From assembly GCA_030390025.1 (NCBI GenBank), contig CM059431.1, positions 137,332,001 through 137,396,000 on the forward strand: DNA of 64,000 nucleotides, given 5' to 3'. The notes under the pieces were generated by a model. That model searched no databases, was not told the origin of the DNA, and was given only the letters and a program-made list of their open reading frames with translations. The DNA is from Squalus acanthias (taxonomy: Eukaryota). Numbering within the stretch: the stretch's first letter is position 1; each line of letters starts with the position of its first letter. Shown one piece after another: positions 27,028-64,000 of the stretch. The translations under genes and the position numbers were made by a program.

Positions 27028-27134
27028 GTAAGGGAGGAAAAGTAAAACAGGCAGGTATCAGAGGATAGATAGTTATGGCTACATGAATGATTTAGATGTT
27101 AACTTGGCTAACAGGATGGAGCAGAGCAAGAGAG

Positions 27135-27720
27135 GATCAGGAGTAGGCCGTCCAGCCCCTACAGCCTGTTACATAGGACCAGGAGGAGGCCATTCAGCTC
27201 TTTGAGCCCCTTACATAGGAATAGGAGTAGGCCATTCAGCCCCTGGAATCCGTTACATAGGAATAGAAAGAGGTCAGTTATGCACTCGATCCTGTTACAT
27301 GGTAAGAGGAAGAAGCCAGTTAGTCTCTCGAGCCTATTACATAGGAACAGGAGCAGGCTATTTACCTCCTCGAGCCTATTGCACAGGAACAGGAATAGAC
27401 CATTTAGCTCTTCGAGCCTGTTACATAGGAACAGGGGGAGGCTATTCAGCCCCTCGAGCCTGTTACATAGATAAAGAAGTCGACCATTTAGCTCTTCGAG
27501 CCTGTTACATAGATAAAGAAGTAGGCCATTTAGCCCCTCAAGACTGTTAAATAGGAACAGGGGGAGGCCATTCAGCCCCTCGAGCCTGTTACATAGGAAC
27601 AGGAGAATAACATACAACTCTCAGAGCCTATTACGTAGGAGCAGGAGTAGACCATTCAGCCTCTCAACCCTGTTATATAGGAACAGGAGGAGGCCATTCC
27701 GCCCCTCAAACTTGTTCCAC
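27135..27720. repeat. 42-bp tandem repeat of the CR1 3'-terminal segment
   Basis: Monomer CATAGGAACAGGAGTAGGCCATTCAGCCCCTCGAGCCTGTTA, about 14 copies, continuing into CR1 body sequence at 27711-27750. Confidence 0.9.
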
Positions 27721-36134: not shown

Positions 36135-36338
36135 GTATTTATTAATGGGGGTGAAATTGAACATGGCTAGTGACGCCAAACAGGCGGTATCCCATTGGTC
36201 GCCTGTTATAGGCGCCACCTAATATTCAGTTCCCTTGACTTCAATACCTACCACTATTCTGTCTATGCGAATTTCTTTTCGGGCCACGGGTGCCTTCTCC
36301 GCCTTGCCAGATTTCTCCTGCTCACTTCAACCTCAATA

Positions 36339-36890
36339 GGTGTGGCACTGAGCCCCACACAGAGCAGGAAGGTCCCAAGTTCCATTCACGGCCTGTGCTG
36401 AGTTTGCTGATCTGACCAGGTGTGGCACTGAGCCCCACACAGAGCAGGAAGGTCCCAAGTTCCATTCACGGCCTGTGCTGAGTTTGCTGATCTGACCAGG
36501 TGTGGCACTGAGCTCCACACACAGAGCAGGAAGGTCCCAAGTTCAATCCACGGCCTGTGCTGAGTTTGCTGATCTGACCAGGTGTGGCACTGAGCTCCAC
36601 ACACAGAGCAGGAAGGTCCCAAGTTCCGTCCACGGCCTGCGCTTAGTTACCTGATCTCACCAGCTGTGGCACTGAGCCCCACACACATAAAAAACAGGAC
36701 GGGACTAGGTTCCATTTACGGCCTATGTTGACTAGTTGCTCTCATCCAGTGCAGGGCCGAGCCCCACACACAGAGCAGGAAGGGCCCAGGCTCCAACCTC
36801 GGCCTCTGCTGTTAGCGGAACTCATCCAGTGCAGGGCCGACCCCACACACAGAGCAGCTCGGTGAAAGGTTCCATCCCCGGGCTGTGTTT
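36339..36890. repeat. 80-bp tandem repeat, about 7 copies, decaying rightwards
   Basis: GGTGTGGCACTGAGCCCCACACAGAGCAGGAAGGTCCCAAGTTCCATTCACGGCCTGTGCTGAGTTTGCTGATCTGACCA at 36339, 36419, 36499 and 36581. Confidence 0.9.
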
Positions 36891-37494
36891 TTGGTTTATT
36901 TAATCTGAGTCAGGTGGTATTAGTGCAAATTCACCACATTTTTAAACTATTAACTAGTGGATATCCGGCGAAATATCAGCATTTGATATTAAATTAATTT
37001 AATTATAAATCCTCCAATTTGACCCCATTTTTAAAAATTCTGTCAACGTTTACATATGTCACACAGCAACCCCGATAGCAGTCACTTTCCTCAGGGATAT
37101 TGCAACCACTCCCACCAGGATGCTCTAAGCACCAACTCCAACGAGCGATACAACATGTACCGCCAGTGCAGCGCTACCGCCAAGATCAGTTTCCTCCACC
37201 GCAGTGCGCGTCCAACCAACGAAAATGATGCATCATCAGGTCGGGTTTTTGACCCCGCCGCTAACATGGAAATAGGACATGAAGGTTCTATATTTCAAAT
37301 CCAGGGCTTCCACGTGATGACACAGTGAAGCTGTCAGTCAATGCCCCACAGCCATCACTGAAGGAAGGAGGCAAGGTGGGATAGAAATGAAGGGCAATCA
37401 TAAACAGCAGGTAGTCAACGCTGATTTCCAAGCGGCATATTGATGCAGAAATTTGACTTGTGCGCACGTGCGAAATTGGCGCTCGCAGTCGGGA

Positions 37495-40400
37495 AGAGTG
37501 GGAAATGGGCGATAGTGGTCGGGGGGTGTGGAGAATGGGAGATAGTGCTCGGGGTGTGTGGAGAATGGGAGATAGTGCTCGGGGGGAGTGGAGAATGAGA
37601 GATAGTGCTCGGGGGGTGGAGAATGGGAGATAGTGCTCGGGGGGGGGCGTGGAGAATGGGAGATAGTGCTCGGGGGGGTGGAGAATGGGAGATAGTGCTC
37701 GGGGGGATTGAAGAATGGGGGATAGTGCTCGGGGTAGTGGAGAATGGGAGATAGTGCTCGGGGGGAGTGGAGAATGGGAGATACTGCTCGGGGGTTCGGA
37801 GAATGGGGAATAGTGCTTAGGGGGGGGTGGAGAATGGGAGATAGTGCTCGGGGGGAGTGGAGAATGGGGGATAGTGCTCGGGCGGAGTGGAGAATGGGAG
37901 ATAGTGCTCGGGGGGTGAAGAGAATGGGAGATAGTTCTCGGCGGGAGTGGAGAATGGGGGATAGTGCTCGGCTTGAGTGGAGAATGGGAAAAAGTTGCTC
38001 GGGGGGTGCGGAGAATGTGGGATAGTGCTCGGGGTGGAGTGGAGAATGTGGGATAGTGCTCGTATTCATGGAGAATGGGGTATAGTGCTCAGGGGGGGTG
38101 GAGAATGGGAGATAGTGCTCGAGGGGAGTGGAGAATCGGAGATAGTGCTCGGGGGGAGGGGAGAATGTGAGATAGTGCTCGGGGGGAGTGGAGAATGTGA
38201 GATAGTGCTCGGGGGGAGTGGAGAATGTGGGATAGTGCTCGTATTCATGGAGAATGGGGTATAGTGCTCAGGGGGGGTGGAGAATGGGAGATAGTGCTCG
38301 GGGGGAGTGGAGAATGGGGGATAGTGCTCGTATTCATGGAGAATGGGGGATATTGCTCGGGCGGAGTGGAGAATGGGAGATAGTGCTCGTATTCATGGAG
38401 AATGGGGGATAGTGCTCATGGCGGGGTGGAGAATGGGAGATAGTGCTCGTATTCATGGAGAATGGGGGATAGTGCTCATGGGAGGGTGGAGAATGGGAGA
38501 TAGTGCTCGTATTCATGGAGAATGGGGGAGAGTGCTCATGGGGGGGTGGAGAATGGGAGATAGTGCTGGGGGGAGTGGAGAATGAGAGATAGTGCTCGGG
38601 GGGAGTGGAGAATGGGGGATCGTGCTCGGGGGGAATGGAGAATGTGGGATAGTGTTTGGGAAGTGTGGAGAATGGGAGATAGTGCTCGGGGGGAGTGGAG
38701 AATGGGGGATAGTGCTCGGAGGGAGTGGAGAATGGGAGATAGTGCTCGGGTGGAGTGGAGAATGGGAGATAGTGCTCGGGGGGAGTGGAAAATGGGAGAT
38801 AGTGCTCGGGGGAGTGGAGAATGGGAGATAGTGTTCGGGGGGAGTGGAGAATGGGGGATAGTGCCCGGGGGGAGTGGAGAATGGGAGATAGCGCTCGGGG
38901 GGAGTGGAGAATGGGAGATAGTGCTGGGGGGTGCTGAGAATGGGGAAAAGTGCTCGCGGGGAGTGGAGAATGGGAGGTAGTGCTAGGGGGGAGTGGAGAA
39001 TGGGGGATAGTGCTCGTATTCATGGAGAATGGGGGATAGTGCTGGGGGGGGGGTGAAGAATGGGAGATAGTGCTCGGGGGGAGTGGAGAATGGGGGATAG
39101 TGCTCGGGGGGAGTGGAGAATGGGAGATAGTGCTAGAGTGGAGTGGAGAATGGGAGATAGTGCTCGGGGTGAGTGGAGAATGAGAGATAGTGCTAGAGTG
39201 GAGTGGAGAATGGGAGATAGTGCTCGGGGGGAGTGGAGAATGAGAGATAGTGCTCGGGGGGTGGAAATGGGAGATAGTGCTTCGGGGGAGTGGAGAGTGG
39301 GAATAGTGCTCGGGGGGGTGGAGAATGGGAGATAGTGCTGGGGGTAGTGGAGAATGGGAGATAGTGCTCGGGGGGAGTGGAGAATGGGAGATAGTGCTCG
39401 GGGGTAGTGGAGAATGGGAGATACTGCTGGGGGGTTCGGAGAATGGGAAATAGTGCTCGGGGGAGTGGAGAATGGGAGATAGTGCTCGGGGGGAGTGGAG
39501 AATGGGGATAGTGCTCGGGCGGAGTGGAGAATGGGAGATAGTGCTCGGGGGGTGAAGAGAATGGGAGATAGTTCTCGGCGGGAGTGGAGAATGGGGGATA
39601 GTGCTCGGCTTGAGTGGAGAATGGGAAAAAGTTGCTCGGGGGGTGCGGAGAATGTGGGATAGTGCTCGGGGTGGAGTGGAGAATGGGAGATAGTGCTCGG
39701 GGGGAGGGGAGAATGGGAGATAGTGCTCGGGGGGAGTGGAGAATGGGAGTTAATGCTCGGGGGGAGTGGAGAATGTGGGATAGTGCTCGTATTCATGGAG
39801 AATGGGGTATAGTGCTCAGGGGGGGTGGAGAATGGGAGATAGTGCTCGAGGGGAGTGGAGAATGAGAGTTAATGCTCGGGGGGAGTGGAGAATGGGGATA
39901 GTGCTCGTTTCATGGAGAATGGGGGATAGTGCTCATGGGGGGTGGAGAATGGGAGATAGTGCTCGGGGGATGGAGAATGGGGATATGCTCGGGGAGTGGA
40001 GAATGGGAGATAGTGCTCGGGTGTGTGGAGAATGGGGGATAGTGCTCAGGGGGAGTGGAGAATGGGAGATAGTGCTGGGGGAGTGGAGAATGGGGATAGT
40101 GCTCGGGGGAGTGGAGAATGGAGATAGTGCTCGGGGGTAATGAGAATGGGGGATAGTGCTCGGGGGGGTGGAGAATGGGAGATAGTGCTCGGGGGAGTGG
40201 AGAATGGGGATAGTGCTCGGGGAGTGAGAATGGGAGATAGTGCTCGGGGTGAGGAGAATGGGGGATAGTGCTCGGAGGGAGTGGAGAATGGGAGATAGTG
40301 TGGGGGGAGTGGATAATGAGAGATAGTGCTCGGGGGGAGTGAGAATGGGGGATAGTGCTCGGGGGATGGAGAATGTGGGATAGTGTTTGGGAAGTGTGGA

Positions 40401-43400
40401 GAATGGGAGATAGTGCTCGGGGGGAGTGGAGAATGGGGGATAGTGCTCGGGGGGAGTGGAGAATGGGAGATAGTGCTCGGGTGGAGTGGAGAATGGGAGA
40501 TAGTGCTCGGGGGGAGTGGAAAATGGGAGATAGTGCTCGGGGGGAGTGGAGAATGGGAGATAGTGTTCGGGGGGAGTGGAGAATGGGGGATAGTGCTCGG
40601 GGGAGTGGAGAATGGGAGATAGCGCTCGGGGGGAGTGGAGAATGGGAGATAGTGCTCGGGGGGAGTGGAGATTGTGGGATAGTGCTCGGGGGGAGTGGAG
40701 AATGGGGGATAGTGCTCATGGGGGGGTGGAGAATGGGAGATAGTGCTCGCATTCATGGAGAATGGGGGATAGTGCTCATGGGGGGGTGGAGAATGGGAGA
40801 TAGTGCTCGTATTCATGGAGAATGGGGGAGAGTGCTCATGGGGGGGTGGAGAATGGGAGAAGTGCTGGGGGGAGTGGAGAATGAGAGATAGTGCTCGGGG
40901 GGAGTGGAGAATGGGGGATCGTGCTCGGGGGGAATGGAGAATGTGGGATAGTGTTTGGGAAGTGTGGAGAATGGGAGATAGTGCTCGGGGGGAGTGGAGA
41001 ATGGGGGATAGTTCTCGGCGGGAGTGGAGAATGGGGGATAGTGCTCGGCTTGAGTGGAGAATGGGAAAAAGTTGCTCGGGGGGTGCGGAGAATGTGGGAT
41101 AGTGCTCGGGGTGGAGTGGAGAATGGGAGATAGTGCTCGGGGGGAGGGGAGAATGGGAGATAGTGCTCGGGGGGAGTGGAGAATGGGAGTTAATGCTCGG
41201 GGGGAGTGGAGAATGTGGGATAGTGCTCGTATTCATGGAGAATGGGGTATAGTGCTCAGGGGGGGTGGAGAATGGGAGATAGTGCTCGAGGGGAGTGGAG
41301 AATGAGAGTTAATGCTCGGGGGGAGTGGAGAATGGGGGATAGTGCTCGTATTCATGGAGAATGGGGGATAGTGCTCATGGGGGGGTGGAGAATGGGAGAT
41401 AGTGCTCGTATTCATGGAGAATGGGGGATAGTGCTCATGGGGGGGTGGAGAATGGGAGATAGTGCTCGTATTCATGGAGAATGGGGGAGAGTGCTCATGG
41501 GGGGGAGGAGAATGGGAGAAGTGCTGGGGGAGTGGAGAATGAGAGATAGTGCTCGGGGGGAGTGGAGAATGGGGGATAGTGCTCGTATTCATGGAGAATG
41601 GGGGATAGTGCTCATGGGGGGGTGGAGAATGGGAGATAGTGCTCGTATTCATGGAGAATGGGGGATAGTGCTCATGGGGGGGTGGAGAATGGGAGATAGT
41701 GCTCGTATTCATGGAGAATGGGGGAGAGTGCTCATGGAGGGGAGGAGAATGGGAGAAGTGCTGGGGGGAGTGGAGAATGAGAGATAGTGCTCGGGGGGAG
41801 TGGAGAATGGGGGATCGTGCTCGGGGGGAATGGAGAATGTGGGATAGTGTTTGGGAAGTGTGGAGAATGGGAGATAGTGCTCGGGGGGAGTGGAGAATGG
41901 GGGATAGTGCTCGGAGGGAGTGGAGAATGGGAGATAGTGCTCGGGTGGAGTGGAGAATGGGAGATAGTGCTCGGGGGGAGTGGAAAATGGGAGATAGTGC
42001 TCGGGGGGAGTGGAGAATGGGAGATAGTGTTCGGGGGGAGTGGAGAATGGGGGATAGTGCTCGGGGGAGTGGAGAATGGGAGATAGAGCTCGGGGGAGTG
42101 GAGAATGGGAGATAGTGCTCGGGGGGAGTGGAGATTGTGGGATAGTGCTCGGGGGGGAGTGGAGAATGGGGGATAGTGCTCATGGGGGGGTGGAGAATGG
42201 GAGATAGTGCTCGCATTCATGGAGAATGGGGGATAGTGCTCATGGGGGGGTGGAGAATGGGAGATAGTGCTCGTATTCATGGAGAATGGGGGAGAGTGCT
42301 CATGGGGGGGTGGAGAATGGGAGAAGTGCTGGGGGGAGTGGAGAATGAGAGATAGTGCTCGGGGGGAGTGGAGAATGGGGGATCGTGCTCGGGGGGAATG
42401 GAGAATGTGGGATAGTGTTTGGGAAGTGTGGAGAATGGGAGATAGTGCTCGGGGGGAGTGGAGAATGGGGGATAGTGCTCGGAGGGAGTGGAGAATGGGA
42501 GATAGTGCTCGGGTGGAGTGGAGAATGGGAGATAGTGCTCGGGGGGAGTGGAAAATGGGAGATAGTGCTCGGGGGGAGTGGAGAATGGGAGATAGTGTTC
42601 GGGGGGAGTGGAGAATCGGGGATAGTGCTCGGGGGAGTGGAGAATGGGAGATAGCGCTCGGGGGGAGTGGAGAATGGGAGATAGTGCTGGGGGTTGCTGA
42701 GAATGGGGAAAAGTGCTCGCGGGGAGTGAAGAATGGGAGGTAGTGCTAGGGGGGAGTGGAGAATGGGGGATAGTGCTCGTATTCATGGAGAATGGGGGAT
42801 AGTGCTGGGGGGGTGGAGAATGGGAGATAGTGCTCGGGGGGAGTGGAGAATGGGGGATAGTGCTCGGGGGGAGTGGAGAATGGGAGATAGTGCTAGAGTG
42901 GAGTGGAGAATGGGAGATAGTGCTAGAGTGGAGTGGAGAATGGGAGATAGTGCTCGGGGTGAGTGGAGAATGGGAGATAGTGCTCGAGTGGAGTGGAGAA
43001 TGGGGGATAGTGCTCGGGGGGAGTGGAGATTGTGGGATAGTGCTCGGGGGGGAGTGGAGAATGGGAGATAGTGCTCGGGGGGAGTGTAGAATGGGAGATA
43101 GCGCTCGGGGGTGCGGAGAATGTGGGATAGTGCTCGGGGGGAGTGGAGAATGGGAGATAATGCTCGGGGGGAGTGGCGAATGGGAGATAGCGCTGGGGTG
43201 TGCGGAGAATGTGGGATAGTGCTCGGGGGGAGTGGAGAATGGGTGATAGTGCTTGTATTCATGGAGAATTAGGGATAGTGCTCAGGAGGGTTGGAGAATG
43301 GGAGATTAAGCTCGGGGGGAATGGAGAATGGGTGATAGTGCTCGTATTCATGGAGAATGAGGGATAGTGCTCAGGGTGGGTGGAGAATGCGAGATAGAGC

Positions 43401-44490
43401 TCGGGGGGAATGTAGAATGTGGGATAGTGTTCGGGAAGTGTGGAGAATGGGAGATAGTGCTCGGGGGGAGTGCAGAATGGGGGATAGTGGTCGTGGGGAG
43501 TGGAGAATGGGGGACAGTGCTCGAGGGGGGAGTGGAGAATGGGAGATAGTGCTCGGGGGGAGCGGAGAATGGGAGATTGTGCTCGGGGGGAGTGATGAAT
43601 GGGCGATAGTGCTCGGGGGAGTGGAGAATGGGGGATAGTGCTCGGATGGAGAATGGGGGAGGGTGTTCTGCGGTAGTGGAGAATGGGAGATAGTGCTCGG
43701 GGGGAGTGGAGAATAGGAGATAGTGCCCGGGGGGGAGTGGAGAATGGGGGATAGTGATCGGGCTGAGTGGAGAATGGGGTATAGTGCTCGGTTGGAGTGG
43801 TGAATGGGAGATAGTGCTCGGGGGGAGTGGAGAATGGGGGATAGTGCTCGGTTGGAGTGGAGATTGGGAGATAGTGATGGGGGGAGTGAAGATTGGGAGA
43901 TAGTGCTCGGGGGGAGCGGAGAATGGGAGATTGTGCTCGGGGGGAGTGGAGAATGGGAGAGAGTGCTCGGGGGGAGTGGAGAATGGGGGAAAGTGCTCGG
44001 GGGGATTGGAGAATGGGGGATAGTGCTCCGGGGGGTGGGGGTGGAGAATCGGAGATAGTGCTCGGGGGGAGTGGAGAATGGGGATAGTGCTCAGGTTAAT
44101 GTAGAATGGGGTATATTGCTCGCGTTAATTGAAAATTGGGGATAGTGCTCGGGCTAATAGAGAATGGGGGATAGTGCTCGTATTAATGGAGAATGGGGGA
44201 TAGTGCTCGGGGGAAATGGAGAATGGGGGAAAGTGCTCAGGGGGAGTGGAGAATGTGGGATAGTGCTCGGGGGGAGTGGAGAATGGGAGATACTGCTCGG
44301 GGGAGTGGAGAATGGGAGATAGTGCTCGGGGGGAGTGGAGAATGTGGGATAATGCTCGGGTTAATGTAGAATGAGTGATATTGCTCGGGTTAATGGAGAA
44401 TGGGGGATAGTGCTCGGGTTAATGGAGAATGGGGTATAGTGCTCCGGTTAAAGGAGAATGGGTGAGTGTGCTAGGGTTAATGGAGAATGT
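37495..44490. repeat. ~7 kb G-rich 30-bp minisatellite inside the NLR intron
   Basis: Monomer GGGGAGTGGAGAATGGGAGATAGTGCTCGG, which generates the spurious GEWRMGDSAR ORFs. Confidence 0.98.
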
Positions 44491-49985: not shown

Positions 49986-51113
49986 TGAACACCTGTTTTA
50001 GGCCCCTACCTTTAGCTGAAAAACTATTACACAAAAACAGAAATAGGTCTGTGCGACTGAATGATAAGCTGTGAGTCTAGAAATTACTGCTTGCGATATT
50101 AACAGACTAAATCTAAGTTTAATATCTACAATAGAATCCCTCCGTAACATTTTAATGGTGGTTTGGAGCTTTATATCATGAATGGCTGGCGAAGTCACTT
50201 GAAATGAGTGAAGTAACCATTCCGATACCAATACTTTACAGCAAAACATCGGGGAGAAAGACCGGGCTAATCTTAACCTTCTTTCAATGGGAGAGTGAAA
50301 TCAGGCGGAGTTTAACATGAGCGGGAGACCAGAACCCGCCCGTTTACGGCCAGACCGGTTTGGTTAAATTAAGCCCCCTGGTGTTTTAACAAGTACTTTC
50401 ATAAAGAATGCCGGTGCCATGTTACTCCTTGGGAATAACTTTGTTGACTCGCTGGAAGATTCCTACCAAATTACCCAGCACCGTTCCATTTCCACAAATT
50501 GCCTGAAGAGCCCAATCATTTCCTTGTAGATGCATGTGGCTCTGTGAGCTGGAGGTCACTGCATGTGATCTTAGAGGAAGAATGCAACCTGCAACATTCC
50601 CCTTCTTTAGCGGAGGTGTTGACCAATTTAAAATGGAAATACATTATCCAATCAGGCGTCTGCTAAGTGCAAGGCCTCTCCCCAGGCTTTCAGACTAGAA
50701 CCGAAACTCCGCTCCATTTCCTCAAGCAAGTGATTTTGGATACAGGGATATGGGCACAACACGTGCACCAGCTAACATCTGCATTTCCTATTCCACAGAT
50801 CCGTCCGTTTAGGCAAACAGAGTAGGAATGCCCCAGGTTCTAGACTGGCTTAGAATTCGTTGGGAGGGGGAACAGGAAAATGATTACCGCTCTTGGAGAC
50901 AATTTTAAATTAACCTGGCAATCGGGAAACTGATGGAATCGGATGAACGTGTGTGTTGCACACCACGTTATTTCACTCTCATTGAATTCAACGGAGAGTA
51001 ATATAGAGGGATGGGAAGGATGTAAAACTGTCAGTTTCCCGCCCGGCCTGTTAAGTTCAAATTACAACAGTGCATGCTCCGCCATTTAATGAGATCATGG
51101 CTGATCCTCCAAT

Positions 51114-53980
51114 TCAGTATCCCGTCCCCGCCTTCTCTCCGTAACCCTTAACCCCTTTTGCCTGTAGAAATATATCTAATTCCCTCTTAAATATATTTAA
51201 TGAGCTGGCGTACACTGCCCTCTGTGGCAATGAGTTCCACAGGTTCACCACCCTCTGAGTGAAGAAATTCCCCCTCATTTCTGTCCTAAATGGTTTAGCC
51301 CTTATCCTTAAATTATGTCCTCTAGTTCTGTTCTCACCCGCCAAGGGAAACATTCCTTCTGCATCTAGTCTGTCTAGACCTGTCAGAATTTTATACACTT
51401 CTATGAGGTCCCCTCTCAATCTTCTAAACTCCAGTGTGTACATCCCTAAACTACATAGTCTCTCCTCATAGGTCAATCCCGCCATTCCAGGTATCAGCCT
51501 GGTGAATCGCCGCTGCACCCCCTCCATGGCAAGAACATCTTTCCTCAGATGAGGCGACCAAAACTGTACACAGTACTCGAGGTGTGGTCTCACCAGTGCC
51601 CTGTACAGCTGCAGCAAGGTATCCCTGTTCCTGTATTCCAACCCTTTTGCTATGAAGGCCAGCATACCGTTTGCCTTCTTGACTGCCTGGTGCACCTGCA
51701 TGCTCGCCTTCAGTGACTGGTGTACAAGAACACCCAGGTCTCTCTGTACTTCCCCCTCTCCCAATTTATTGCCATTTAAATAATAATTTGCCCTCCCGTT
51801 CCTGCACCCAAGGTGGATAACTTCGCACTTGTCCACATTATAGTGCATCTGCCATTTATCCGCCCAATCACCCAGTCTGTCCAAATCGCTCTGGAGCTTC
51901 CTGGTCTCCTCCTCTGAGCCCACCCCCCCTCCTAGTTTAGTGTCGTCTGCAAATTTGGAAATGCTGCATCCGACTCCCTGATCCAGGTCATTAATGTAAA
52001 TTGTGAACAGCTGGGGACCCAGGACAGATCCCTGTGGTACCCCACTTGTTACTGCCTGCCATTCAGAAAATGAGCCGTTTATTCCAACTCTTTGTTTTCT
52101 ATCTGACAGCCAGTTCTCTATCCACGTCAATACTTTCCCCTTTATCCCATGAGCTTCAATTTTCCATGCTAATCTTTTATGTGGGACCTTATCGAAGGCC
52201 TTTTGGAAGTCCAGGTACACCACATCTACTGGCACTCCCCCATCTATTTTACCAGTTACTCCCTCAAAAAATTCCAATAGATTAGTCAAGCACGATTTAC
52301 CCTTTGTAAATCCATGTTGACTCTGTCCTATCCTGTCCCCATTTGCTAAGTGCTCCGCTATTTCATCCTTAATGATGGACTCCAGCATTTTGCCCACAAC
52401 TGATGTAAGGCTTACAGGTCTGTAATTACCTGCTTTTTCCCTACCCACCTTTTTGAATAGTGGGGTAACGTTAGCTACCCTCCAATCCATGGGCACTGTT
52501 CCCGAGTCTAATGAATTCTGAAAAATCATACTTAGTGCATCCGCTATCTCTAGGGCCACCTCCTTCAGTACCCTAGGATGCATGTTATCAGGCCCTGGGG
52601 ATTTGTCCGCCTTCAATCCCTTTAGCTTCCTTAACACCATATCCTTAGAGATATTGATTTGCGTCAGTTCCTCCTTTGCCAATGTCCCTATTTTTCCCGA
52701 TATCCCAGGGAGGTTTTTTGTGTCTTCCTTCATAAAGACTGACCCAAAGTATGCATTTAGTTGGTCTGCCATTTCCTTATTTCCCATTATATATTCCCCC
52801 GTATCTGACTGCAATGGACCAACTTTGGTTTTCACCAGTCTTTTCCTCTTGATATACTTATAAAAGCTTTTGGAGTTAGTTTTTATATTTTCTGCCAGCT
52901 TGCTTTCGAAAGCTATTTTGCCCCTCTTGATTAAGCCCTTTGTCCTCCTTTGCTCTATCTTAAACTGTTCCCAATCTTCCGCTCTGGCGCTTTTTTTGGC
53001 TATTTTATACGCCCTATCTTTGGATTTTATGCTGTCTCTAATTTCCCCTGTTATCCACGGTTGAGTCACCTTTTTAGATTTCCTTTTATGCCAGATTGGT
53101 ATAAACAATTTTTGCAATTTTGTCATTCTATCTTTAAATGCTTGCCATTGTTTATCTACCTCCAGTCCTCCCAGGAACGTTGTCCAATCAGACCTACTCA
53201 GTTCCCGTCTAATGGCATCATAAATCCCCTTGTTTAAATTCAGGACCTTATCTCTGAGTCAATTTCTTCGCTCTCCATTTCGAGTGAGAAATCGATCATG
53301 TTATGATCGCTCTGACCCAAGGGTCCCCGTACAACAAGATTACTAATTAGTCCCTTCTCATAGCACAGTACCCAGTCCAATATAGCCTGTTCCCGAGTTG
53401 GTTCCTCGACATATTGATCCAGATAACCATCCCTTAAACACTCAAGGAATTCCTCCTCCTCATTATTTTTACTGATTAGGCTAGCCCAATCTATATGTAA
53501 GTTAAATTCACCTATGATGACAGCTGTGCTCTTATTGCACGCTTCTCTAATTTCCCTCGTGATGCCCTCCCCAACCTCTATTTTACTATTTGGAGGCCTA
53601 TATACCACTCCTAATAATGTTTTTCGCCCCTCGCTATTTCTTAGCTCCACCCATATAGATTCTGTATTAACTGAGTTAATATCCTTCCTTTCAATTGCAT
53701 TTATCCCCTCTTTTACCAGCAATGCTACCCCTCCTCCCTTTCTTTTTTGTCGATCCTTCCTAAATACTGAATACCCCTGTATGTTAAGCTCCCAGCCCTG
53801 CTCACCCTGCAACCATGTTTCCGTAATCCCAATTAGATCATAATTATTAACCTCTATTTCCACAGCTAATTCATCTACCTTGTTCCTGATGCTTCTCGCA
53901 TTAAGGTATAAAACCCTCAGGCTTTTTTTATGCTCACATTTTTTATGAATTAGTTTGGCCCTTTGTTTTTTGTTCCTCAC
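51114..53980 (-). CDS. CR1 ORF2p (APE endonuclease plus reverse transcriptase) with one frameshift at ~53246
   Basis: YLNARS, GITETWL, SDHN, GVPQGSVLGP, KFADDTK. Restoring one G at ata-agg-(g)tc-ctg joins the two ORFs. Confidence 0.95.
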
Positions 53981-54054
53981 CCTTTTACCATTTATTTCTG
54001 TCTGCCTTTCACTTTCCTCTATTTCACTACATAGGTTTCTAGCCCCCTGCCATA

Positions 54055-55002
54055 TTAGTTTAAATGCTCCCGAACTGCTTTATCAAAAATTACCCCGAGA
54101 ACATCAGTTCCATCTTTGCACAGGTGTAGACCGTCCCTTTTGTATAGGTCACACCTACCACAAAACTGGTTCCAATGCCTCAAAAATTTAAAACCCTCCC
54201 TCTTACACCACTGCTCAAGCCACGTATTTAGCCTAACTATCCTGTTCTCTGTACTCTTACTAGCACGTGGCACTGGTAGTAATCCAGAGATTACTACCTT
54301 CGAGGTCCTACTTTTTAGCTTGGCTCCTAACTCCCTAAATTCTACTTGTAGGACCTCTTCCCTTTTTTTAGCTACGTCGTTGGTACCAACATGTATCACG
54401 ACAACTGGCTGTTCCCCCTCCCCCTCCAGAATGTTCTGCACCCGCGCCGAGACATCCTTGACCCTTGCACCAGGGAGGCAACATACCATCCTGGAGTCTC
54501 AGTCGCGACCACAGAAACCCCTATCTATTCCCCTTACAATCGAATCCCCTATTACTATAGCCCTGCCACTCTTTTTCCCTCCCTTCTTTGCAACAGAGCC
54601 AGTCATGGTGCCATGAGCCTGGCTGCTGGTGCCTTCCCCCGATGAGTCATCCCCCCCGACAACAGCACCTAAGGCGGTGAACCTGTTGCTAAGGGAGACA
54701 ACCCCAGGGGATTTCTGCACTACCTTCCTGCCCTTGCTCTGCCTTTTGGTCACCCATGTACTATCTACGCTGGCCTTAACCTGCGGTGTGACCAACTCAC
54801 TAAATGTGCTATCCACAACCCTCTCAGAATCGTGGATGCTCCAAAGTGACTCCATCCGCAGCTCAAGGGCCGTCATGCGGTCCCACATGAGCTGCAGCTG
54901 GACACACTTCCCGCACACATGGTTGTTAGGGACACAGGAAGCGTCCCTGATTTCCCACATGTTACAGGAGGAGCATGACACAGGTCCGAGCTCTACTGCC
55001 AT
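54055..55002 (-). CDS. CR1 ORF1p (Cys-rich zinc-finger-like, coiled coil, SGNH esterase) with one in-frame stop at 54499-54501
   Basis: CSSCNMW...CGKC, IVIGDSIVR, VIHVGTND, DGLHL. ORFs 54499..55002 and 54055..54489 share a frame across RD*DSRM, likely CGA>TGA. Confidence 0.9.
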
Positions 55003-55450
55003 GACTTAACCCTTATATTACTTTTTAATTTTCTAGTTTTAGCTTATTTATTGACTTTTGTTTTCCCGAAGCTTACTTAGACCAATGTATACTGTACTCC
55101 TCTTATTCCTTTTTAAACTAACCAAATCCCACTAGTTTTAGTTTTACTTTCTAGGAAGGTTTGAGGAAAGTACTTATCAGTTAGTCTTACCTCCCTGGTC
55201 TTTCGCTGACTTCCCAGTCTTGTGTCCCCTTGGTCCTACGCCGACTTCCCGCTCCTCCCGGTAACCGTCCTGCCCTGCTGAAAAGAAACTGAGACCAAAA
55301 AATTTGTGACCTCTGTTTTTAGACTGCTAAAAGACTAGTAGGTTAGAGGAGGAGGGCGGGTGGGGGTTCCTACTCTGTAGGAACTCGGGTTTAAGCCACC
55401 ACCCTCCTTAAATGCCGTTCACCTGGGTGCTTCCCACCTGGTCCGCTTCT

Positions 55451-58400
55451 GGTCTCGTCGCTCCCGACAACAGCCTGTGAAGAAAAGCCCGCGAAAGTGA
55501 GTTCAAATACTCACAGCACCTCACAGCACCTCCGGTCTCGTCGCTCCCGACAACAGCCTGTGAAGAAAAGCCCGCGAAAGTGAGTTCAAATACTCACAGC
55601 ACCACACAGCACCTCCGGTCTCGTCGCTCCCAACAACAGCCTGTGAAGAAAAGCCCGCGAAAGTGAGTTCAAATACTCACAGCACCTCACAGCACCTCCG
55701 GTCTCGTCGCTCCCGACAACAGCCTGTGAAGAAAAGCCCGCAAAAGTGAGTTCAAATACTCACAGCACCTCACAGCACCTCCGGTCTCGTCGCTCCTGAC
55801 AACAGCCTGTGAAGAAAAGCCCGCGAAAGTGAGTTCAAATACTCACAGCACCTCCGGTCTCGTCGCTCCCGACAACAGCCTGTGAAGAAAAGCCCGCGAA
55901 AGTGAGTTCAAACACTCACAGCACCTCACAGCACCTCCGGTCTCGTCGCTCCCGACAACAGCCTGTGAAGAAAAGCCCGCGAAAGTGAGTTCAAATACTC
56001 ACAGCACCTCACAGCACCTCCGGTCTCGTCGCTCCCGACAACAGCCTGTGAAGAAAAGCCCGCGAAAGTGAGTTCAAATTATCACAGCACCTCCGGTCTC
56101 ATCGCTCCCGACAACAGCCTGTGAAGAAAAGCCCGCGAAAGTGAGTTCAAATACTCACAGCACCTCACAGCACCACCGGTCTCGTCGCTCCCGACAACAG
56201 CCTGTGAAGAAAAGCCCGCGAAAGTGAGTTCAAATACTCACAGCACCTCACAGCACCTCCGGTCTCGTCGCTCCCGACAACAGCCTGTGAAGAAAAGCCC
56301 GAGAAAGTGTGTTCAAATACTCACAGCACCTCACAGCACCTCCGGTCTCATCGCTCCCGACAACAGCCTGTGAAGAAAAGCCCGCGAAAGTGAGTTCAAA
56401 TACTCACAGCACCTCCGGTCTCGTCCCTCCCGACAACAGCCTGTGAAGAAAAGCCCGCGAAAGTGAGTTCAAATACTCACAGCACCTCCGGTCTCGTCGC
56501 TCCCGACAACAGCCTGTCAAGAAAAGCCCGCGAAAGTGAGTTCAAATACTCACAGCACCTCACAGCACCTCCGGTCTCATCGCTCCCGACAACAGCCTGT
56601 GAAGAAAAGCCCGCGAAAGTGAGTTCAAATACTCACAGCACCTCACAGCACCTCCGGTCTCGTCGTTCCCGACAACAGCCTGTGAAGAAAAGCCTGCGAA
56701 AGTGAGTTCAAATACTCACAGCACCACACAGCACCTCCGGTCTCGTCGCTCCCGACAACAGCCTGTGAAGAAAAGCCCGCGAAAGTGAGTTCAAATACTC
56801 ACAGCACCTCACAGCACCTCCGGTCTCGTCGCTCCCGACAACAGCCCGTGAAGAAAAGCCCGCGAAAGTGAGTTCAAATACTCACAGCACCTCCGGTCTC
56901 GTCGCTCCCGACAACAGCCTGTGAAGAAAAGCCCGCGAAAGTGAGTTCAAATACTCACAGCACCTCACATCACCTCCGGTCTCGTCGCTCCCGACAACAG
57001 CCTGTGAAGAAAAGCCCGCGAAAGTGTGTTCAAATACTCACAGCACCTCACAGCACCTCCGGTCTCGTCGCTCCCGACAACAGCCTGTGAAGAAAAGCCC
57101 GCGAAAGTGAGTTCAAATACTCACAGCACCTCACAGCACCTCCGGTCTCGTCGCTCCCGACAACAGCCTGTGAAGAAAACCCCGCGAAAGTGAGTTCAAA
57201 TACTCACAGCACCTCCGGTCTCGTCGCTCCCGACAACAGCCTATGAAGAAAAGCCCGCGAAAGTGAGTTCAAATACTCACAGCACCTCACAGCACCTCCG
57301 GTCTCGTCGCTCCCGACAACAGCCTGTGAAGAAAAGCCCGCGAAAGTGAGTTCAAATACTCACAGCACCTCACAGCACCTCCGGTCTCGTCGCTCCTGAC
57401 AACAGCCTGTGAAGAAAAGCCCGCGAAAGTGAGTTCAAATACTCACAGCACCTCACAGCACCTCCGGTCTCGTCGCTCCCGACAACAACCTGTGAAGAAA
57501 AGCCCGCGAAAGTGAGTTCAAATACTCACAGCACCTCACAGTACCTCCGGTCTCATCGCTCCCGACAACAGCCTGTGAAGAAAAGCCCGCGAAAGTGAGT
57601 TCAAATACTCACAGCACCTCCGGTCTCGTCGCTCCCGACAACAGCCTGTAAAGAAAAGCCCACGAAAGTGAGTTCAAATACTCACAGCACCTCACAGCAC
57701 CTCCGGTCTCGTCGCTCCCGACAACAGCCTGTGAAGAAAAGCCCGCGAAAGTGAGTTCAACTACTCACAGCACCTCACAGCACCTCCGGTCTCATCGCTC
57801 CCGACAACAGCCTGTGAAGAAAAGCCCGCGAAAGTGAGTTCAAATACTCACAGCACCTCCGGTCTCGTCGCTCCCGACAACAGCCTGTGAAGAAAAGCCC
57901 GCGAAAGTGAGTTCAAATACTCACAGCACCTCACAGCACCTCCAGTCTCGTCGCTCCCGACAACAGCCTGTCAAGAAAAGCCCGCGAAAGTGAGTTCAAA
58001 TACTCACAGCACCTCACAGCACCTCCGGTCTCATCGCTCCCGACAACAGCCTGTGAAGAAAAGCCCGCGAAAGTGAGTTCAAATACTCACAGCACCTCAC
58101 AGCACCTCCGGTCTCGTCGCTCCCGACAACAGCCTGTGAAGAAAAGCCCGCGAAAGTGAGTTCAAATACTCACAGCACCTCCGGTCTCGTCCCTCCCGAC
58201 AACATCCTGTGAAGAAAAGCCCGCGAAAGTGAGTTCAAATACTCACAGCACCTCACAGCACCTCCGGTCTCATCGCTCCCGACAACAGCCTGTGAAGAAA
58301 AGCCCGCGAAAGTGAGTTCAAATACTCACAGCACCTCACAGCACCTCCGGTCTCGTCGTTCCCGACAACAGCCTGTGAAGAAAAGCCTGCGAAAGTGAGT

Positions 58401-61400
58401 TCAAATACTCACAGCACCTCACAGCACCTCCGGTCTCGTCGCTCCCGACAACAGCCCGTGAAGAAAAGCCCGCGAAAGTGAGTTCAAATACTCACAGCAC
58501 CTCCGGTCTCGTCGCTCCCGACAACAGCCTGTGAAGAAAAGCCCGCGAAAGTGAGTTCAAATACTCACAGCACCTCACATCACCTCCGGTCTCGTCGCTC
58601 CCGACAACAGCCTGTGAAGAAAAGCCCGCGAAAGTGAGTTCAAATACTCACAGCACCTCCGGTCTCGTCGCTCCCGACAACAGTCTGTGAAGAAAAGCCC
58701 GCGAAAGTGAGTTCAAATACTCACAGCACCTCACAGCACCTCCGGTCTCGTCGCTCCCGACAACAGCCCGTGAAGAAAAGCCCGCGAAAGTGAGTTCAAA
58801 TACTCACAGCACCTCCGGTCTCGTCGCTCCCGACAACAGCCTGTGAAGAAAAGCCCGCGAAAGTGAGTTCAAATACTCACAGCACCTCACATCACCTCCG
58901 GTCTCGTCGCTCCCGACAACAGCCTGTGAAGAAAAGCCCGCGAAAGTGAGTTCAAATACTCACAGCACCTCACAGCACCTCCGGTCTCGTCGCTCCCGAC
59001 AACAGCCTGTGAAGAAAAGCCCGCGAAAGTGAGTTCAAATACTCACAGCACCTCACAGCACCTCCGGTCTCGTCGCTCCCGACAACAGCCTGTGAAGAAA
59101 ACCCCGCGAAAGTGAGTTCAAATACTCACAGCACCTCCGGTCTCGTCGCTCCCGACAACAGCCTGTGAAGAAAAGCCCGCGAAAGTGAGTTCAAATACTC
59201 ACAGCACCTCACAGCACCTCCGGTCTCGTCGCTCCCGACAACAGCCTGTGAAGAAAAGCCCGCGAAAGTGAGTTCAAATACTCACAGCACCTCACAGCAC
59301 CTCCGGTCTCGTCGCTCCTGACAACAGCCTGTGAAGAAAAGCCCGCGAAAGTGAGTTCAAATACTCACAGCACCTCACAGCACCTCCGGTCTCGTCGCTC
59401 CCGACAACAACCTGTGAAGAAAAGCCCGCGAAAGTGAGTTCAAATACTCACAGCACCTCACAGTACCTCCGGTCTCATCGCTCCCGACAACAGCCTGTGA
59501 AGAAAAGCCCGCGAAAGTGAGTTCAAATACTCACAGCACCTCCGGTCTCGTCGCTCCCGACAACAGCCTGTGAAGAAAAGCCCACGAAAGTGAGTTCAAA
59601 TACTCACAACACCTCACAGCACCTCCGGTCTCGTCGCTCCCGACAACAGCCTGTGAAGAAAAGCCCGCGAAAGTGAGTTCAACTACTCACAGCACCTCAC
59701 AGCACCTCCGGTCTCATCGCTCCCGACAACAGCCTGTGAAGAAAAGCCCGCGAAAGTGAGTTCAAATACTCACAGCACCTCCGGTCTCGTCGCTCCCGAC
59801 AACAGCCTGTGAAGAAAAGCCCGCGAAAGTGATTTCAAATACTCACAGCACCTCACAGCACCTCCAGTCTCGTCGCTCCCGACAACAGCCTGTCAAGAAA
59901 AGCCCGCGAAAGTGAGTTCAAATACTCACAGCACCTCACAGCACCTCCGGTCTCATCGCTCCCGACAACAGCCTGTGAAGAAAAGCCCGCGAAAGTGAGT
60001 TCAAATACTCACAGCACCTCACAGCACCTCCGGTCTCGTCGCTCCCGACAACAGCCTGTGAAGAAAAGCCCGCGAAAGTGAGTTCAAATACTCACAGCAC
60101 CACACAGCACCTCCGGTCTCGTCGCTCCCGACAACAGCCTGTGAAGAAAAGCCCGCGAAAGTGAGTTCAAATACTCACAGCACCTCACAGCACCTCCGGT
60201 CTCGTCGCTCCCGACAACAGCCTGTGAGGAAAAGCCCGCGAAAGTGAGTTCAAATACTCACAGCACCTCCGGTCTCGTCGCTCCCGACAACAGCCTGTGA
60301 AGAAAAGCCCGCGAAAGTGAGTTCAAATACTCACAGCACCTCACAGCACCTCCGGTCTCGTCGCTCCCGACAACAGCCTGTGAAGAAAAGCCCGCGAAAG
60401 TGAGTTCAAATACTCACAGCACCTTACAGCACCTCCGGTCTCGTCGCTCCCGACAACAGCCTGTGAAGAAAAGCCCGCGAAAGTGAGTTCAAATACTCAC
60501 AGCACCTCACAGCACCTCCGGTCTCGTCGCTCCCGACAACAGCCTGTGAAGAAAACCCCGCGAAAGTGAGTTCAAATACTCACAGCACCTCACAGCACCT
60601 CCGGTCTCGTCGCTCCCGACAACAGCCTGTGAAGAAAAGTCCGCGAAAGTGAGTTCAAATACTCACAGCACCTCACAGTACCTCCGGTCTCGTTGCTCCC
60701 GACAACAGCCTGTGAAGAAAAGCCCGCGAAAGTGAGTTCAAATACTCACAGCCCCTCCGGTCTCATCGCTCCCGACAACAGCCCGTGAAGAAAAGCCCGC
60801 GAAAGTGAGTTCAAATACTCACAGCACCTCCGGTCTCGTCGCTCCCGACAACAGCCTGTGAAGAAAAGCCCGCGAAAGTGAGTTCAAATACTCACAGCAC
60901 CTCACATCACCTCCGGTCTCGTCGCTCCCGACAACAGCCTGCGAAGAAAAGCCCGCGAAAGTGAGTTCAAATACTCACAGCACCTCACAGCACCTCCGGT
61001 CTCGTCGCTCCCGACAACAGCCTGTGAAGAAAAGCCCGCGAAAGTGAGTTCAAATACTCACAGCACCTCACAGCACCTCCGGTCTCGTCGCTCCCGACAA
61101 CAGCCTGTGAAGAAAACCCCGCGAAAGTGAGTTCAAATACTCACAGCACCTCCGGTCTCGTCGCTCCCGACAACAGCCTGTGAAGAAAAGCCCGCGAAAG
61201 TGAGTTCAAATACTCACAGCACCTCACAGCACCTCCGGTCTCGTCGCTCCCGACAACAGCCTGTGAAGAAAAGCCCGCGAAAGTGAGTTCAAATACTCAC
61301 AGCACCTCACAGCACCTCCGGTCTCGTCGCTCCTGACAACAGCCTGTGAAGAAAAGCCCGCGAAAGTGAGTTCAAATACTCACAGCACCTCACAGCACCT

Positions 61401-64000
61401 CCGGTCTCGTCGCTCCCGACAACAACCTGTGAAGAAAAGCCCGCGAAAGTGAGTTCAAATACTCACAGCACCTCACAGTACCTCCGGTCTCATCGCTCCC
61501 GACAACAGCCTGTGAAGAAAAGCCCGCGAAAGTGAGTTCAAATACTCACAGCACCTCCGGTCTCGTCGCTCCCGACAACAGCCTGTGAAGAAAAGCCCAC
61601 GAAAGTGAGTTCAAACACTCACAACACCTCACAGCACCTCCGGTCTCGTCGCTCCCGACAACAGCCTGTGAAGAAAAGCCCGCGAAAGTGAGTTCAACTA
61701 CTCACAGCACCTCACAGCACCTCCGGTCTCATCGCTCCCGACAACAGCCTGTGAAGAAAAGCCCGCGAAAGTGAGTTCAAATACTCACAGCACCTCCGGT
61801 CTCGTCGCTCCCGACAACAGCCTGTGAAGAAAAGCCCGCGAAAGTGAGTTCAAATACTCACAGCACCTCACAGCACCTCCAGTCTCGTCGCTCCCGACAA
61901 CAGCCTGTCAAGAAAAGCCCGCGAAAGTGAGTTCAAATACTCACAGCACCTCACAGCACCTCCGGTCTCATCGCTCCCGACAACAGCCTGTGAAGAAAAG
62001 CCCGCGAAAGTGAGTTCAAATACTCACAGCACCTCACAGCACCTCCGGTCTCGTCGCTCCCGACAACAGCCTGTGAAGAAAAGCCCGCGAAAGTGAGTTC
62101 AAATACTCACAGCACCACACAGCACCTCCGGTCTCGTCGCTCCCGACAACAGCCTGTGAAGAAAAGCCCGCGAAAGTGAGTTCAAATACTCACAGCACCT
62201 CACAGCACCTCCGGTCTCGTCGCTCCCGACAACAGCCTGTGAGGAAAAGCCCGGGAAAGTGAGTTCAAATACTCACAGCACCTCCGGTCTCGTCGCTCCC
62301 GACAACAGCCTGTGAAGAAAAGCCCGCGAAAGTGAGTTCAAATACTCACAGCACCTCACAGCACCTCCGGTCTCGTCGCTCCCGACAACAGCCTGTGAAG
62401 AAAAGCCCGCGAAAGTGAGTTCAAATACTCACAGCACCTTACAGCACCTCCGGTCTCGTCGCTCCCGACAACAGCCTGTGAAGAAAAGCCCGCGAAAGTG
62501 AGTTCAAATACTCACAGCACCTCACAGCACCTCCGGTCTCGTCGCTCCCGACAACAGCCTGTGAAGAAAACCCCGCGAAAGTGAGTTCAAATACTCACAG
62601 CACCTCACAGCACCTCCGGTCTCGTCGCTCCCGACAACAGCCTGTGAAGAAAAGTCCGCGAAAGTGAGTTCAAATACTCACAGCACCTCACAGTACCTCC
62701 GGTCTCGTTGCTCCCGACAACAGCCTGTGAAGAAAAGCCCGCGAAAGTGAGTTCAAATACTCACAGCCCCTCCGGTCTCATCGCTCCCGACAACAGCCTG
62801 TGAAGAAAAGCCCGCGAAAGTGAGTTCAAATACTCACAGCACCTCACAGCACCTCCGGTCTCATCGCTCCCAACAACAGCCTGTGAAGAAAAGCCCGCGA
62901 AAGTGAGTTCAAATACTCACAGCACCTCACAGCACCTCCGGTCTCGTCGCTCCCGACAACAGCCTGTGAAGAAAAGCCCGCGAAAGTGAGTTCAAATACT
63001 CACAGCACCTCCGGTCTCGTCGCTCCCGACAGCAGCCTGTGAAGAAAAGCCCGCGAAAGTGAGTTCAAATACTCACAGCACCTCACAGCACCTCCGGTAT
63101 CGTCGCTCCCGACAACAGCCTGTGAAGAAAAGCCCGCGAAAGTGAGTTCAAATACTCACAGCACCTCACAGCACCTCCGGTCTCGTCGCTCCCGACAACA
63201 GCCTGTGAAGAAAAGCCCGCGAAAGTGAGTTCAAATACTCACAGCACCTCACAGCACCTCCGGTCTCGTTGCTCCCGACAACAGCCTGTGAAGAAAAGCC
63301 CGCGAAAGTGAGTTCAAATACTCACAGCACCTCCGGTCTCATCGCTCCCGACAACAGCCTGTGAAGAAAAGCCCGCGAAAGTGAGTTCAAATACTCACAG
63401 CACCTCCGGTCTCGTCGCTCCCGACAACAGCCTGTGAAGAAAAGCCCGCGAAAGTGAGTTCAAATACTCACAGCACCTCACAGCACCTCCGGTCTCGTCG
63501 CTCCCGACAACAGCCTGTGAAGAAAAGCCCGCGAAAGTGAGTTCAAATACTCACAGCACCTCACAGCACCTCCGGTCTCGTCGCTCCCGACAACAGCCTG
63601 TGAAGAAAACCCCGCGAAAGTGAGTTCAAATACTCACAGCACCTCACAGCACCTCCGGTCTCGTCGCTCCCGACAACAGCCTGTGAAGAAAAGTCCGCGA
63701 AAGTGAGTTCAAATACTCACAGCACCTCACAGTACCTCCGGTCTCGTTGCTCCCGACAACAGCCTGTGAAGAAAAGCCCGCGAAAGTGAGTTCAAATACT
63801 CACAGCACCTCCGGTCTCATCGCTCCCGACAACAGCCTGTGAAGAAAAGCCCGCGAAAGTGAGTTCAAATACTCACAGCACCTCACAGCACCTCCGGTCT
63901 CATCGCTCCCAACAACAGCCTGTGAAGAAAAGCCCGCGAAAGTGAGTTCAAATACTCACAGCACCTCACAGCACCTCCGGTCTCGTCGCTCCCGACAACA
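55451..64000. repeat. Tandem array of 83-bp and 73-bp monomers, roughly 105 copies, running off the window end
   Basis: Monomer GGTCTCGTCGCTCCCGACAACAGCCTGTGAAGAAAAGCCCGCGAAAGTGAGTTCAAATAC(TCACAGCACC)1-2 TCC, near-identical copies. Confidence 0.98.

What the first reader, a model, noticed from the sequence alone, without database searches (positions are those of the whole stretch)
55002..64000. >8.5 kb CpG-rich monomer array fused to the 5' end of a near-intact CR1 LINE
Seen: the array starts at 55451, directly after ~450 nt of CR1 5' UTR, and its copies are near-identical, so it is about as young as the element. Known: mouse L1 5' UTRs are built from tandem promoter monomers, normally a few copies. 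Inference: this is either a CR1 5' promoter monomer that ran away into a ~100-copy satellite, or a CR1 that inserted at a satellite edge.
Basis: partly seen in the sequence, partly recalled or inferred. Interest (0 to 1): 0.75.

Follow-up and report, generated by a model that had tools for sequence, protein, structure and literature searches.

The report
Shark LINE leader repeat turned satellite
A short repeat that normally sits in a few copies near the front end of a young shark jumping gene has, next to one dead copy of that gene, multiplied into a block of more than 100 copies, showing a jumping gene's front end turning into satellite DNA.

Summary
Observation confirmed. 55451-64000 holds 106 complete units (79 of 83 bp, 27 of 73 bp; 1.2% from consensus; CpG o/e 1.01). 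They are joined by a 448-bp spacer to ORF1 of a minus-strand, chondrichthyan-type CR1 that has one ORF1 stop, one ORF2 frameshift and no 3' tail.

The unit belongs to the CR1 subfamily and is not a chance neighbour. Contigs from 4 of 4 laid public runs cross the spacer-unit junction with letters this copy lacks; in the deepest run 14 contigs do so at very high depth. Rough depth ratios suggest about 1-6 units per copy, so this locus is an outlier. ~2-kb higher-order blocks and an excess of CpG transitions point to amplification as methylated genomic DNA.

Promoter function is not shown. In one run, 15 contigs leave the unit at one position into a shared upstream sequence. The array may therefore be a variable repeat inside the 5' UTR rather than mouse-type terminal promoters.

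Precedents exist: mouse L1 monomers (up to 50), 5' subunit arrays in ORF1-less CR1-group elements, and TE-derived satellites. Verdict: a new variant of a known kind.

The parts
55451..64000 (-). Tandem array of 106 complete 83/73-bp units plus a stub, open at the window end; CpG o/e 1.01; ~2-kb higher-order blocks (24-25 units)
55448..55451 (-). Spacer-unit junction. Family contigs read C at 55450 where this copy has T; with C the junction matches the register of the unit-unit joints
   Evidence: table 3; (106 of 107 units preceded by C)
55514..55514 (-). Position 64 of unit 1, where 15 contigs of run X2 leave the unit into one shared non-unit sequence (putative 5' leader, not present here). 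It coincides with the G of a GTGAGT donor-like motif on the element strand
   Evidence: table 7
55003..55450 (-). 448-bp non-repetitive 5' UTR spacer ('tether') between array and ORF1; high-copy in run X2; acceptor-like site at 55278 and donor-like site at 55190
54055..55002 (-). CR1 ORF1 (Cys-rich N-terminus, GDSL/SGNH esterase) with an in-frame stop at 54499-54501
53240..54079 (-). ORF2, first frame: APE-type endonuclease; ends at a frameshift near 53250
51114..53258 (-). ORF2, second frame: reverse transcriptase (RVT_1, E 1.2e-30)
51072..51113 (-). 3' UTR, clipped: the terminal stem-loop and tail seen in other CR1 ends of the window are absent
51054..51064 (+). 11-mer in the flank just beyond the clipped 3' end; recurs once in the array at 56070-56080; TSD-like but not accepted as a TSD
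56070..56080 (+). Second copy of that 11-mer, in unit 8, the only unit with two adjacent substitutions

Best explanation
The 83/73-bp unit is a built-in, variable-number repeat in the 5' UTR of a young, abundant elasmobranch CR1 subfamily. The layout is putative leader - (unit)n - 448-bp spacer - ORF1 - ORF2, and a typical copy carries a few units. One copy was inserted here with its units and is now dead (ORF1 stop, ORF2 frameshift, clipped 3' end). Its unit array then expanded at DNA level by unequal exchange or block duplication, reaching more than 106 units with ~2-kb higher-order repeats, as methylated satellite-like DNA in a region rich in tandem arrays. Shown: the array, the element, the junction in other family copies, the higher-order blocks and the CpG-transition excess. 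Inferred: the typical unit number, the leader, expansion in place and methylation. Not shown: that a unit has promoter activity (about 40% on position and CpG content).
For: (1) In run X2, 14 contigs cross 55450 with C instead of this copy's T, summed depth 95,531 of 96,086. Their mean is ~6,800 per contig, against ~25 for rare-variant contigs of the same run, and the spacer bins 55264-55443 run 58,000-188,000. (2) X6 record 32 bridges the junction (55260-55501, more than 31 letters each side) and X11 record 16 crosses it by 19 letters. Both runs show C55450 and T55460, and X6 also an inserted letter at 55479; none of these letters occurs at this copy's junction or in its 106 units. (3) The unit-unit joint 55533->55451 appears in 4 of 4 runs. 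X2 shows further unit variants whose last seven letters match none of the 106 units here (table 5c). (4) Unit-loop to spacer depth is 6.0 (X11), 0.9 (X1) and 1.3-3.7 (X6), far below 106. (5) Identical runs of 4-7 units recur at lags of 24, 25 and 49 units, so blocks were duplicated after point mutations arose. (6) 8 of 12 possible CpG transitions are seen against 14 of 71 other transitions (Fisher p = 0.002); 39 of 105 mismatches are CpG transitions. (7) Tandem arrays cover 26% of window 1-51000, including a 42-bp array made from a CR1 3' tail.
Against: The tool warns that contig depth is no copy number, so the unit-per-copy ratios are rough. X2 may be the sample the window came from, and only about 55% of it was read. 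X11's low depth on this subfamily could be carry-over. No contig spans a whole array or shows a second full-length copy, and no genome is held, so copy-by-copy unit counts were not made. The leader exit was listed for X2 only (134 loose ends not shown). The far end of the array lies outside the window. An 11-mer shared by the 3' flank and unit 8 is unexplained (4 of 1,018 control tiles do as well).
Confidence: 0.7

Rival explanations
1. The unit is CR1-derived, but the long array existed already, as a satellite seeded by another copy. This CR1 copy was joined to it through its own few units, by ectopic recombination or by homology-guided 5' attachment during insertion.
For: The 11-mer at 51054-51064 recurs once, at 56070-56080 in unit 8, the only unit with two adjacent substitutions. 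Only 4 of 1,018 control tiles share an 11-mer with the array. Read as a TSD, it would place the element's own 5' end in unit 8. The clipped 3' end fits an atypical insertion or a later rearrangement. The first 15 units hold 5 private variants against 1-2 in later groups of 15.
Against: The 11-mer lies 7 bases away from the end of CR1 similarity, and a copy that lost its tail after insertion would normally lose the TSD too. Units 1-8 share non-CpG variants (T71A, T58C) with distal units. The test was post hoc.
Confidence: 0.15
2. Long arrays are normal for this subfamily: many copies carry tens of units, copied through the RNA.
For: Unit bins in X2 are as deep as or deeper than spacer bins (67,000-349,000 against 58,000-188,000). 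Unit-unit joints occur in all 4 runs.
Against: Loop-to-spacer ratios of 0.9-6.0 in the three low-depth runs. Higher-order blocks carry CpG transitions, which arise in methylated DNA.
Confidence: 0.07
3. A CR1 inserted at the edge of an unrelated satellite.
For: The window is rich in unrelated arrays (26% of 1-51000). No robust homology links the unit to the rest of the element (scoring-dependent: 2, 96 and 16 of 500 shuffles).
Against: The junction occurs in other copies, with several haplotypes, in 4 of 4 runs from 4 studies and at very high depth in X2.
Confidence: 0.04
4. The array length is an assembly artefact (a short array over-extended).
For: Only one assembly of the locus was seen; no read spanning the array was available.
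Against: The units carry 38 distinct substitutions in a nested block pattern rather than exact copies. The 73-bp form is seen independently as a joint in X2.
Confidence: 0.03

Closest known systems
Mouse L1Md monomer promoters (A, Gf, Tf) with tether. PMC6454616: passages and section 8 read; PMC9022269: abstract; PMC5381506: passages
   Same: CpG-rich tandem units at the 5' UTR joined to ORF1 by a non-repetitive tether. A few units per copy (mouse means 2.7-3.1; 99% have 10 or fewer) with rare extremes (one promoter of 50 type-A monomers, about 11 kb).
   Different: CR1, not L1, and in a cartilaginous fish. Unit 83/73 bp, not ~200 bp. At least 106 units. Copies seem to continue upstream of the units into one shared leader (15 contigs, one run), whereas mouse elements begin within a monomer. 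Promoter activity is untested here.
5' subunit arrays of ORF1(-) CR1-group elements (PMC13343379, Fig. 4 legend; passages read, one supplementary file searched)
   Same: CR1-group LINE with a repeated, species-specific subunit near the 5' UTR.
   Different: The paper reports 1-5 subunits of 100-500 bp in elements without ORF1. This element has an esterase ORF1, an 83-bp unit and more than 100 units at this locus.
Satellites derived from transposable elements: chicken HinfI/SCR1 from CR1, common cetacean satellite from the L1 3' end, PisTR-A from the Ogre 3' UTR, ENSAT1 from an En/Spm 5' region (seen only as listed in the review PMC9659126, passages)
   Same: A repeat carried inside a mobile element is amplified into a long homogenised array.
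   Different: The LINE-derived cases in the passages read come from ORF2 or the 3' end. Here the source is the 5' UTR, and the parent element is still attached in register.

Membership tests
Canonical vertebrate CR1 LINE | ORF1 with esterase (SGNH/GDSL) domain | tested here: met
   Lipase_GDSL_2 E 1.6e-10. 64 homologues at E <= 1e-30; the best named ones are from sharks and rays, up to 68% identity. One in-frame stop.
Canonical vertebrate CR1 LINE | ORF2 with APE endonuclease and reverse transcriptase | tested here: met
   Exo_endo_phos_2 E 8.1e-08 and RVT_1 E 1.2e-30, split by one frameshift.
Canonical vertebrate CR1 LINE | Conserved 3' tail with stem-loop and short terminal repeats | tested here: not met
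   This copy stops at ~51072; 3 of 3 other ends in the window continue; stem-loop in the one comparator folded. A lesion of this copy, not a different family.
Canonical vertebrate CR1 LINE | Placement in the CR1 clade on an RT tree | not tested
   No tree built; the assignment rests on domain layout, the tail of related copies and homologue names.
Canonical vertebrate CR1 LINE | Target-site duplication | tested here: inconclusive
   One 11-mer shared between 3' flank and unit 8; far end of the array outside the window.
Mouse-L1-type monomer promoter | Tandem units are part of the family's 5' UTR, joined to ORF1 by a tether | tested here: met
   Junction present in 4 of 4 runs with letters absent from this copy.
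Mouse-L1-type monomer promoter | Variable, usually small number of units per copy | tested here: inconclusive
   Depth ratios 0.9-6.0 fit, but contig depth is not copy number.
Mouse-L1-type monomer promoter | CpG-rich units | tested here: met
   CpG o/e 1.01, GC 0.547; but CpG transitions are in excess.
Mouse-L1-type monomer promoter | Elements start inside a unit (units are terminal) | tested here: inconclusive
   Leans against: 15 X2 contigs exit at unit position 64 into one shared sequence, agreement 0.76; seen in one run only, 134 loose ends not shown.
Mouse-L1-type monomer promoter | Units drive transcription | not testable with these tools
   No holder on record as RNA, contigs only.
5' subunit arrays of ORF1(-) CR1-group elements | No ORF1; 1-5 subunits of 100-500 bp | tested here: not met
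   ORF1 present; 83/73-bp units, 106 copies; definition from PMC13343379 Fig. 4 legend.
TE-derived satellite DNA | Long head-to-tail homogenised array whose unit is part of a TE | tested here: met
   At least 8.5 kb, 1.2% divergence, higher-order blocks; unit is part of the CR1 family.
TE-derived satellite DNA | Arrays that have spread independently of the TE | not testable with these tools
   No genome held.

The most novel reading that the evidence does not exclude
A shark CR1 lineage independently evolved an L1-like modular 5' regulatory array. Each 83-bp unit is a CpG-rich promoter or enhancer module that also carries a splice donor, a branch-like word and a weak acceptor. Because the leader ends exactly at the donor, unit number could tune both transcription and leader splicing. 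Copies whose array runs away become methylated satellites, so LINE promoters would be a recurrent seed of satellite DNA in sharks.
Probability: 0.25. Interest if true: 0.62.

Novelty: new variant of a known kind. Interest (0 to 1): 0.4.

Why it matters
CR1 is the dominant retrotransposon of most vertebrates (PMC13343379 abstract), yet the word 'promoter' does not occur in that survey's main text. A young, abundant CR1 subfamily with a defined 83-bp variable repeat in its 5' UTR gives a ready reporter test of where a CR1 promoter lies and whether L1-type monomer logic evolved twice. The locus also keeps parent element and daughter satellite attached in register, a clean case of a satellite arising from a LINE 5' end. 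The concept itself (monomer arrays, rare runaway arrays, TE-born satellites) is known, which limits the surprise.

Tried and rejected
No whole genome is held for this window, so copies could not be counted one by one.

The unit pattern gave 0 exact matches in metagenome contigs. Searches with an alignment of 21 of the 64 ORF1 homologues gave only distant loci: 4 in metagenomes, 3 in prokaryote genomes, 0 in viral contigs. Only L001 was checked for repeats; it has no comparable array. Rfam found nothing in the window at gathering thresholds, and the unit does not fold better than shuffles (z -0.76).

Homology between the unit and the spacer (55235-55299) looked significant in one 100-bp tile (0 of 300 shuffles). 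Over the whole spacer it depends on scoring (2, 96 and 16 of 500 shuffles; 4, 72 and 15 of 228 real tiles), so it is left inconclusive.

Splicing: no GT..AG joint was listed in the four runs. The unit's acceptor-like site fell below my pyrimidine threshold, and donor to acceptor within a unit is only 40 nt, shorter than usual vertebrate introns (own knowledge). No RNA holder was listed; this is no evidence on expression.

I first took the GEFN word in the endonuclease for a lesion. The older CR1 copy at 18494-19175 has the same word, so I dropped that. The unmethylated-CpG-island reading was rejected on the CpG-transition excess. The 11-mer was not accepted as a TSD (see rival 1).

Literature: searches listed no paper that, by title, abstract or the passages read, describes a 5' unit array in a shark CR1 or a satellite from a CR1 5' UTR. 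The library lacks most subscription journals, and Repbase/Dfam were not searchable. The one supplementary file held for PMC13343379 had no hit for the unit or for 'subunit', 'tandem' or 'UTR'; its consensus library may lie in files not held. The parrot preprint (10.1101/2021.03.08.434498) and PMC4255032, passages read, held nothing relevant.

Full report
Observation. TRF finds one array from 55451 to the window end, period 83, 106.3 copies. It splits into 106 complete units and a 22-bp stub: 79 units of 83 bp and 27 of 73 bp, the short form lacking one copy of an internal 10-bp duplication. The units differ from the consensus (identical to unit 1) at 105 of 8,528 bases, 1.2%; the mean pairwise distance among 83-mers is 2.2%. 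GC is 54.7% and CpG o/e 1.01, against 0.43 in the adjoining element and 0.55 in window 1-51000. An unrelated 30-bp array in the window reaches 0.87, so CpG richness alone is not unique here.

The element. On the minus strand ORF1 starts at 55002, 448 bp from the array, and runs to 54055 with one in-frame stop. ORF2 follows in two frames split near 53250. Pfam finds a GDSL esterase in ORF1 and an APE endonuclease and RT in ORF2. Read through its stop with X, ORF1 has 64 homologues at E <= 1e-30 among 1,491 candidates; the best named ones come from sharks and rays, at up to 68% identity. This is a chondrichthyan-type CR1 with esterase ORF1; no tree was built. The copy is dead and clipped. 3 of 3 other CR1 3' ends printed from the window continue beyond the point (~51072) where this one stops, and the one comparator folded forms a terminal stem-loop that this copy lacks.

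Is the unit part of the family? No genome is held, so I used public runs. 18 of 24 listed runs hold at least half of the words of 54700-55616, under three organism labels; none is on record as RNA. I laid 4 of those runs, from four studies, on 54634-55533; all are contigs.

In the deep DNA-like run X2, 14 contigs cross position 55450, the last base before unit 1, reading C where this copy has T (summed depth 95,531 of 96,086). Their mean is about 6,800 per contig, against about 25 for rare-variant contigs of the same run. The adjoining spacer bins run 58,000-188,000. With C, the junction has the same register as the unit-unit joints (106 of 107 units are preceded by C). X6 record 32 bridges the junction from 55260 to 55501, and X11 record 16 crosses it by 19 letters. 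These runs show letters (C55450, T55460, and in X6 an insertion at 55479) found nowhere at this copy's junction or in its 106 units, so they come from other copies. The unit-unit joint appears in 4 of 4 runs, and X2 shows unit variants absent from this array (table 5c). The longest near-identical contigs of the low-depth runs differ from this copy by about 0.4-1.1% (table 8), so the subfamily is young. Caveats: the tool states that contig depth is no copy number; X2 may be the source sample and was 55% read; X11's low depth could be carry-over.

How many units are normal? The depth of the unit loop over the depth of the spacer is 6.0 in X11, 0.9 in X1 and 1.3-3.7 in X6. These rough ratios include any giant arrays, so a typical copy probably has a few units and this locus, with at least 106, is an outlier. 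Mouse L1 shows the same shape: means of 2.7-3.1 monomers, 99% with 10 or fewer, and one promoter of 50 (PMC6454616, section 8 read).

How it grew. Identical runs of 4-7 units recur at lags of 24, 25 and 49 units, about 2 and 4 kb, so blocks were duplicated after their point mutations arose. CpG transitions are in excess: 8 of 12 possible against 14 of 71 other transitions (p = 0.002), and 39 of 105 mismatches. From established knowledge, this is the mark of germline methylation. I infer amplification at DNA level, by unequal exchange or block duplication, in methylated chromatin rather than transport of a 13-kb RNA. The region favours this: tandem arrays cover 26% of 1-51000, one of them a 42-bp array built from a CR1 3' tail. 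Unchecked earlier notes on this genome report other LINE-born arrays.

Is it a promoter monomer? Not shown. For: its place at the 5' end and its CpG content, against 0.21-0.56 in the spacer. Against a strict mouse analogy: in X2, 15 contigs leave the unit at 55514 (unit position 64) into one shared sequence (agreement 0.76; table 7). This suggests a fixed leader upstream of the units, making the array a variable repeat inside the 5' UTR. The exit was listed for one run only, and 134 loose ends were not shown. It falls exactly on the G of a GTGAGT donor-like word, and the unit also holds a branch-like word. However, its acceptor-like site missed my threshold, the implied intron is 40 nt, and no GT..AG joint was listed. 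Splicing stays a speculation. Homology of the unit to the spacer is scoring-dependent and inconclusive.

An unexplained detail. The 11-mer at 51054-51064, just beyond the clipped 3' end, recurs once in the array, at 56070-56080 in unit 8, the only unit with two adjacent substitutions. 4 of 1,018 control tiles share an 11-mer with the array. As a TSD it would mean the element arrived with about 7.5 units at the edge of an existing array of the same unit. But it does not abut the end of CR1 similarity, the tail is missing, and units 1-8 share non-CpG variants with distal units. I keep this as the main rival (0.15).

Comparison with what is known. It works like the bipartite monomer-plus-tether 5' UTR of mouse L1 (PMC5381506 passages; PMC9022269 abstract), but terminal position and promoter activity are not established, so it is not filed as a member. 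Repeated 5' subunits are already reported for CR1-group elements, as 1-5 subunits of 100-500 bp in elements lacking ORF1 (PMC13343379, Fig. 4 legend); this element fails that definition. Satellites from TE parts are well known, including from CR1 ORF2/3' UTR; the LINE cases in the review passages read are from ORF2 or the 3' end (PMC9659126). Ten searches listed no description of a 5' unit array in a shark CR1, within a library that lacks most subscription journals; repeat databases were not searchable, and supplements not held may bear on this.

Verdict. Real, and a new variant of a known kind: the 5' UTR repeat of a young ORF1-bearing shark CR1, expanded beside a dead copy into a satellite-like array of more than 8.5 kb. 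Confidence 0.7; interest 0.4.

Noticed in passing
window 27133-27707: 42-bp tandem array (13.7 copies, 75% matches) whose unit, read on the minus strand, resembles the CR1/SINE 3' tail stem-loop region: a second case of a LINE end turned into an array.
   Followed up: partly
window 54055-54064 (- strand): ORF1 ends in a TTTAAAC word directly followed by a stop, with ORF2 overlapping in another frame.
   Followed up: partly
window 16444-19868 (- strand): Older, decayed CR1 copy (45-66% amino-acid identity over ORF2 pieces) with a complete 3' tail; no unit array upstream of it. It shares the GEFN word in the endonuclease.
   Followed up: partly
window 37489-44444: 30-bp array, 234 copies, strongly G-skewed (GC skew about 0.75), CpG o/e 0.87; no match elsewhere in the window.
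   Followed up: no
window 5299-8644 and 31607-33345: 26-bp arrays flanking a CR1 3' fragment at about 6050-6290, and a 34-bp array of 51 copies; origin not worked out.
   Followed up: no
window 36338-36887: 82-bp array (4.3 copies, 94% matches) with two further decayed copies at 36759-36887. It resembles a tRNA-derived SINE head (recalled, not tested).
   Followed up: no
window 51054-51064 and 56070-56080: Shared 11-mer between the 3' flank and unit 8; TSD-like, unexplained.
   Followed up: partly
protein P0009: A protein 57% identical to this CR1 ORF1 is filed in NCBI as a Pseudomonas aeruginosa SGNH hydrolase on a 4-kb contig; probably host DNA contaminating a bacterial assembly (inference).
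   Followed up: no
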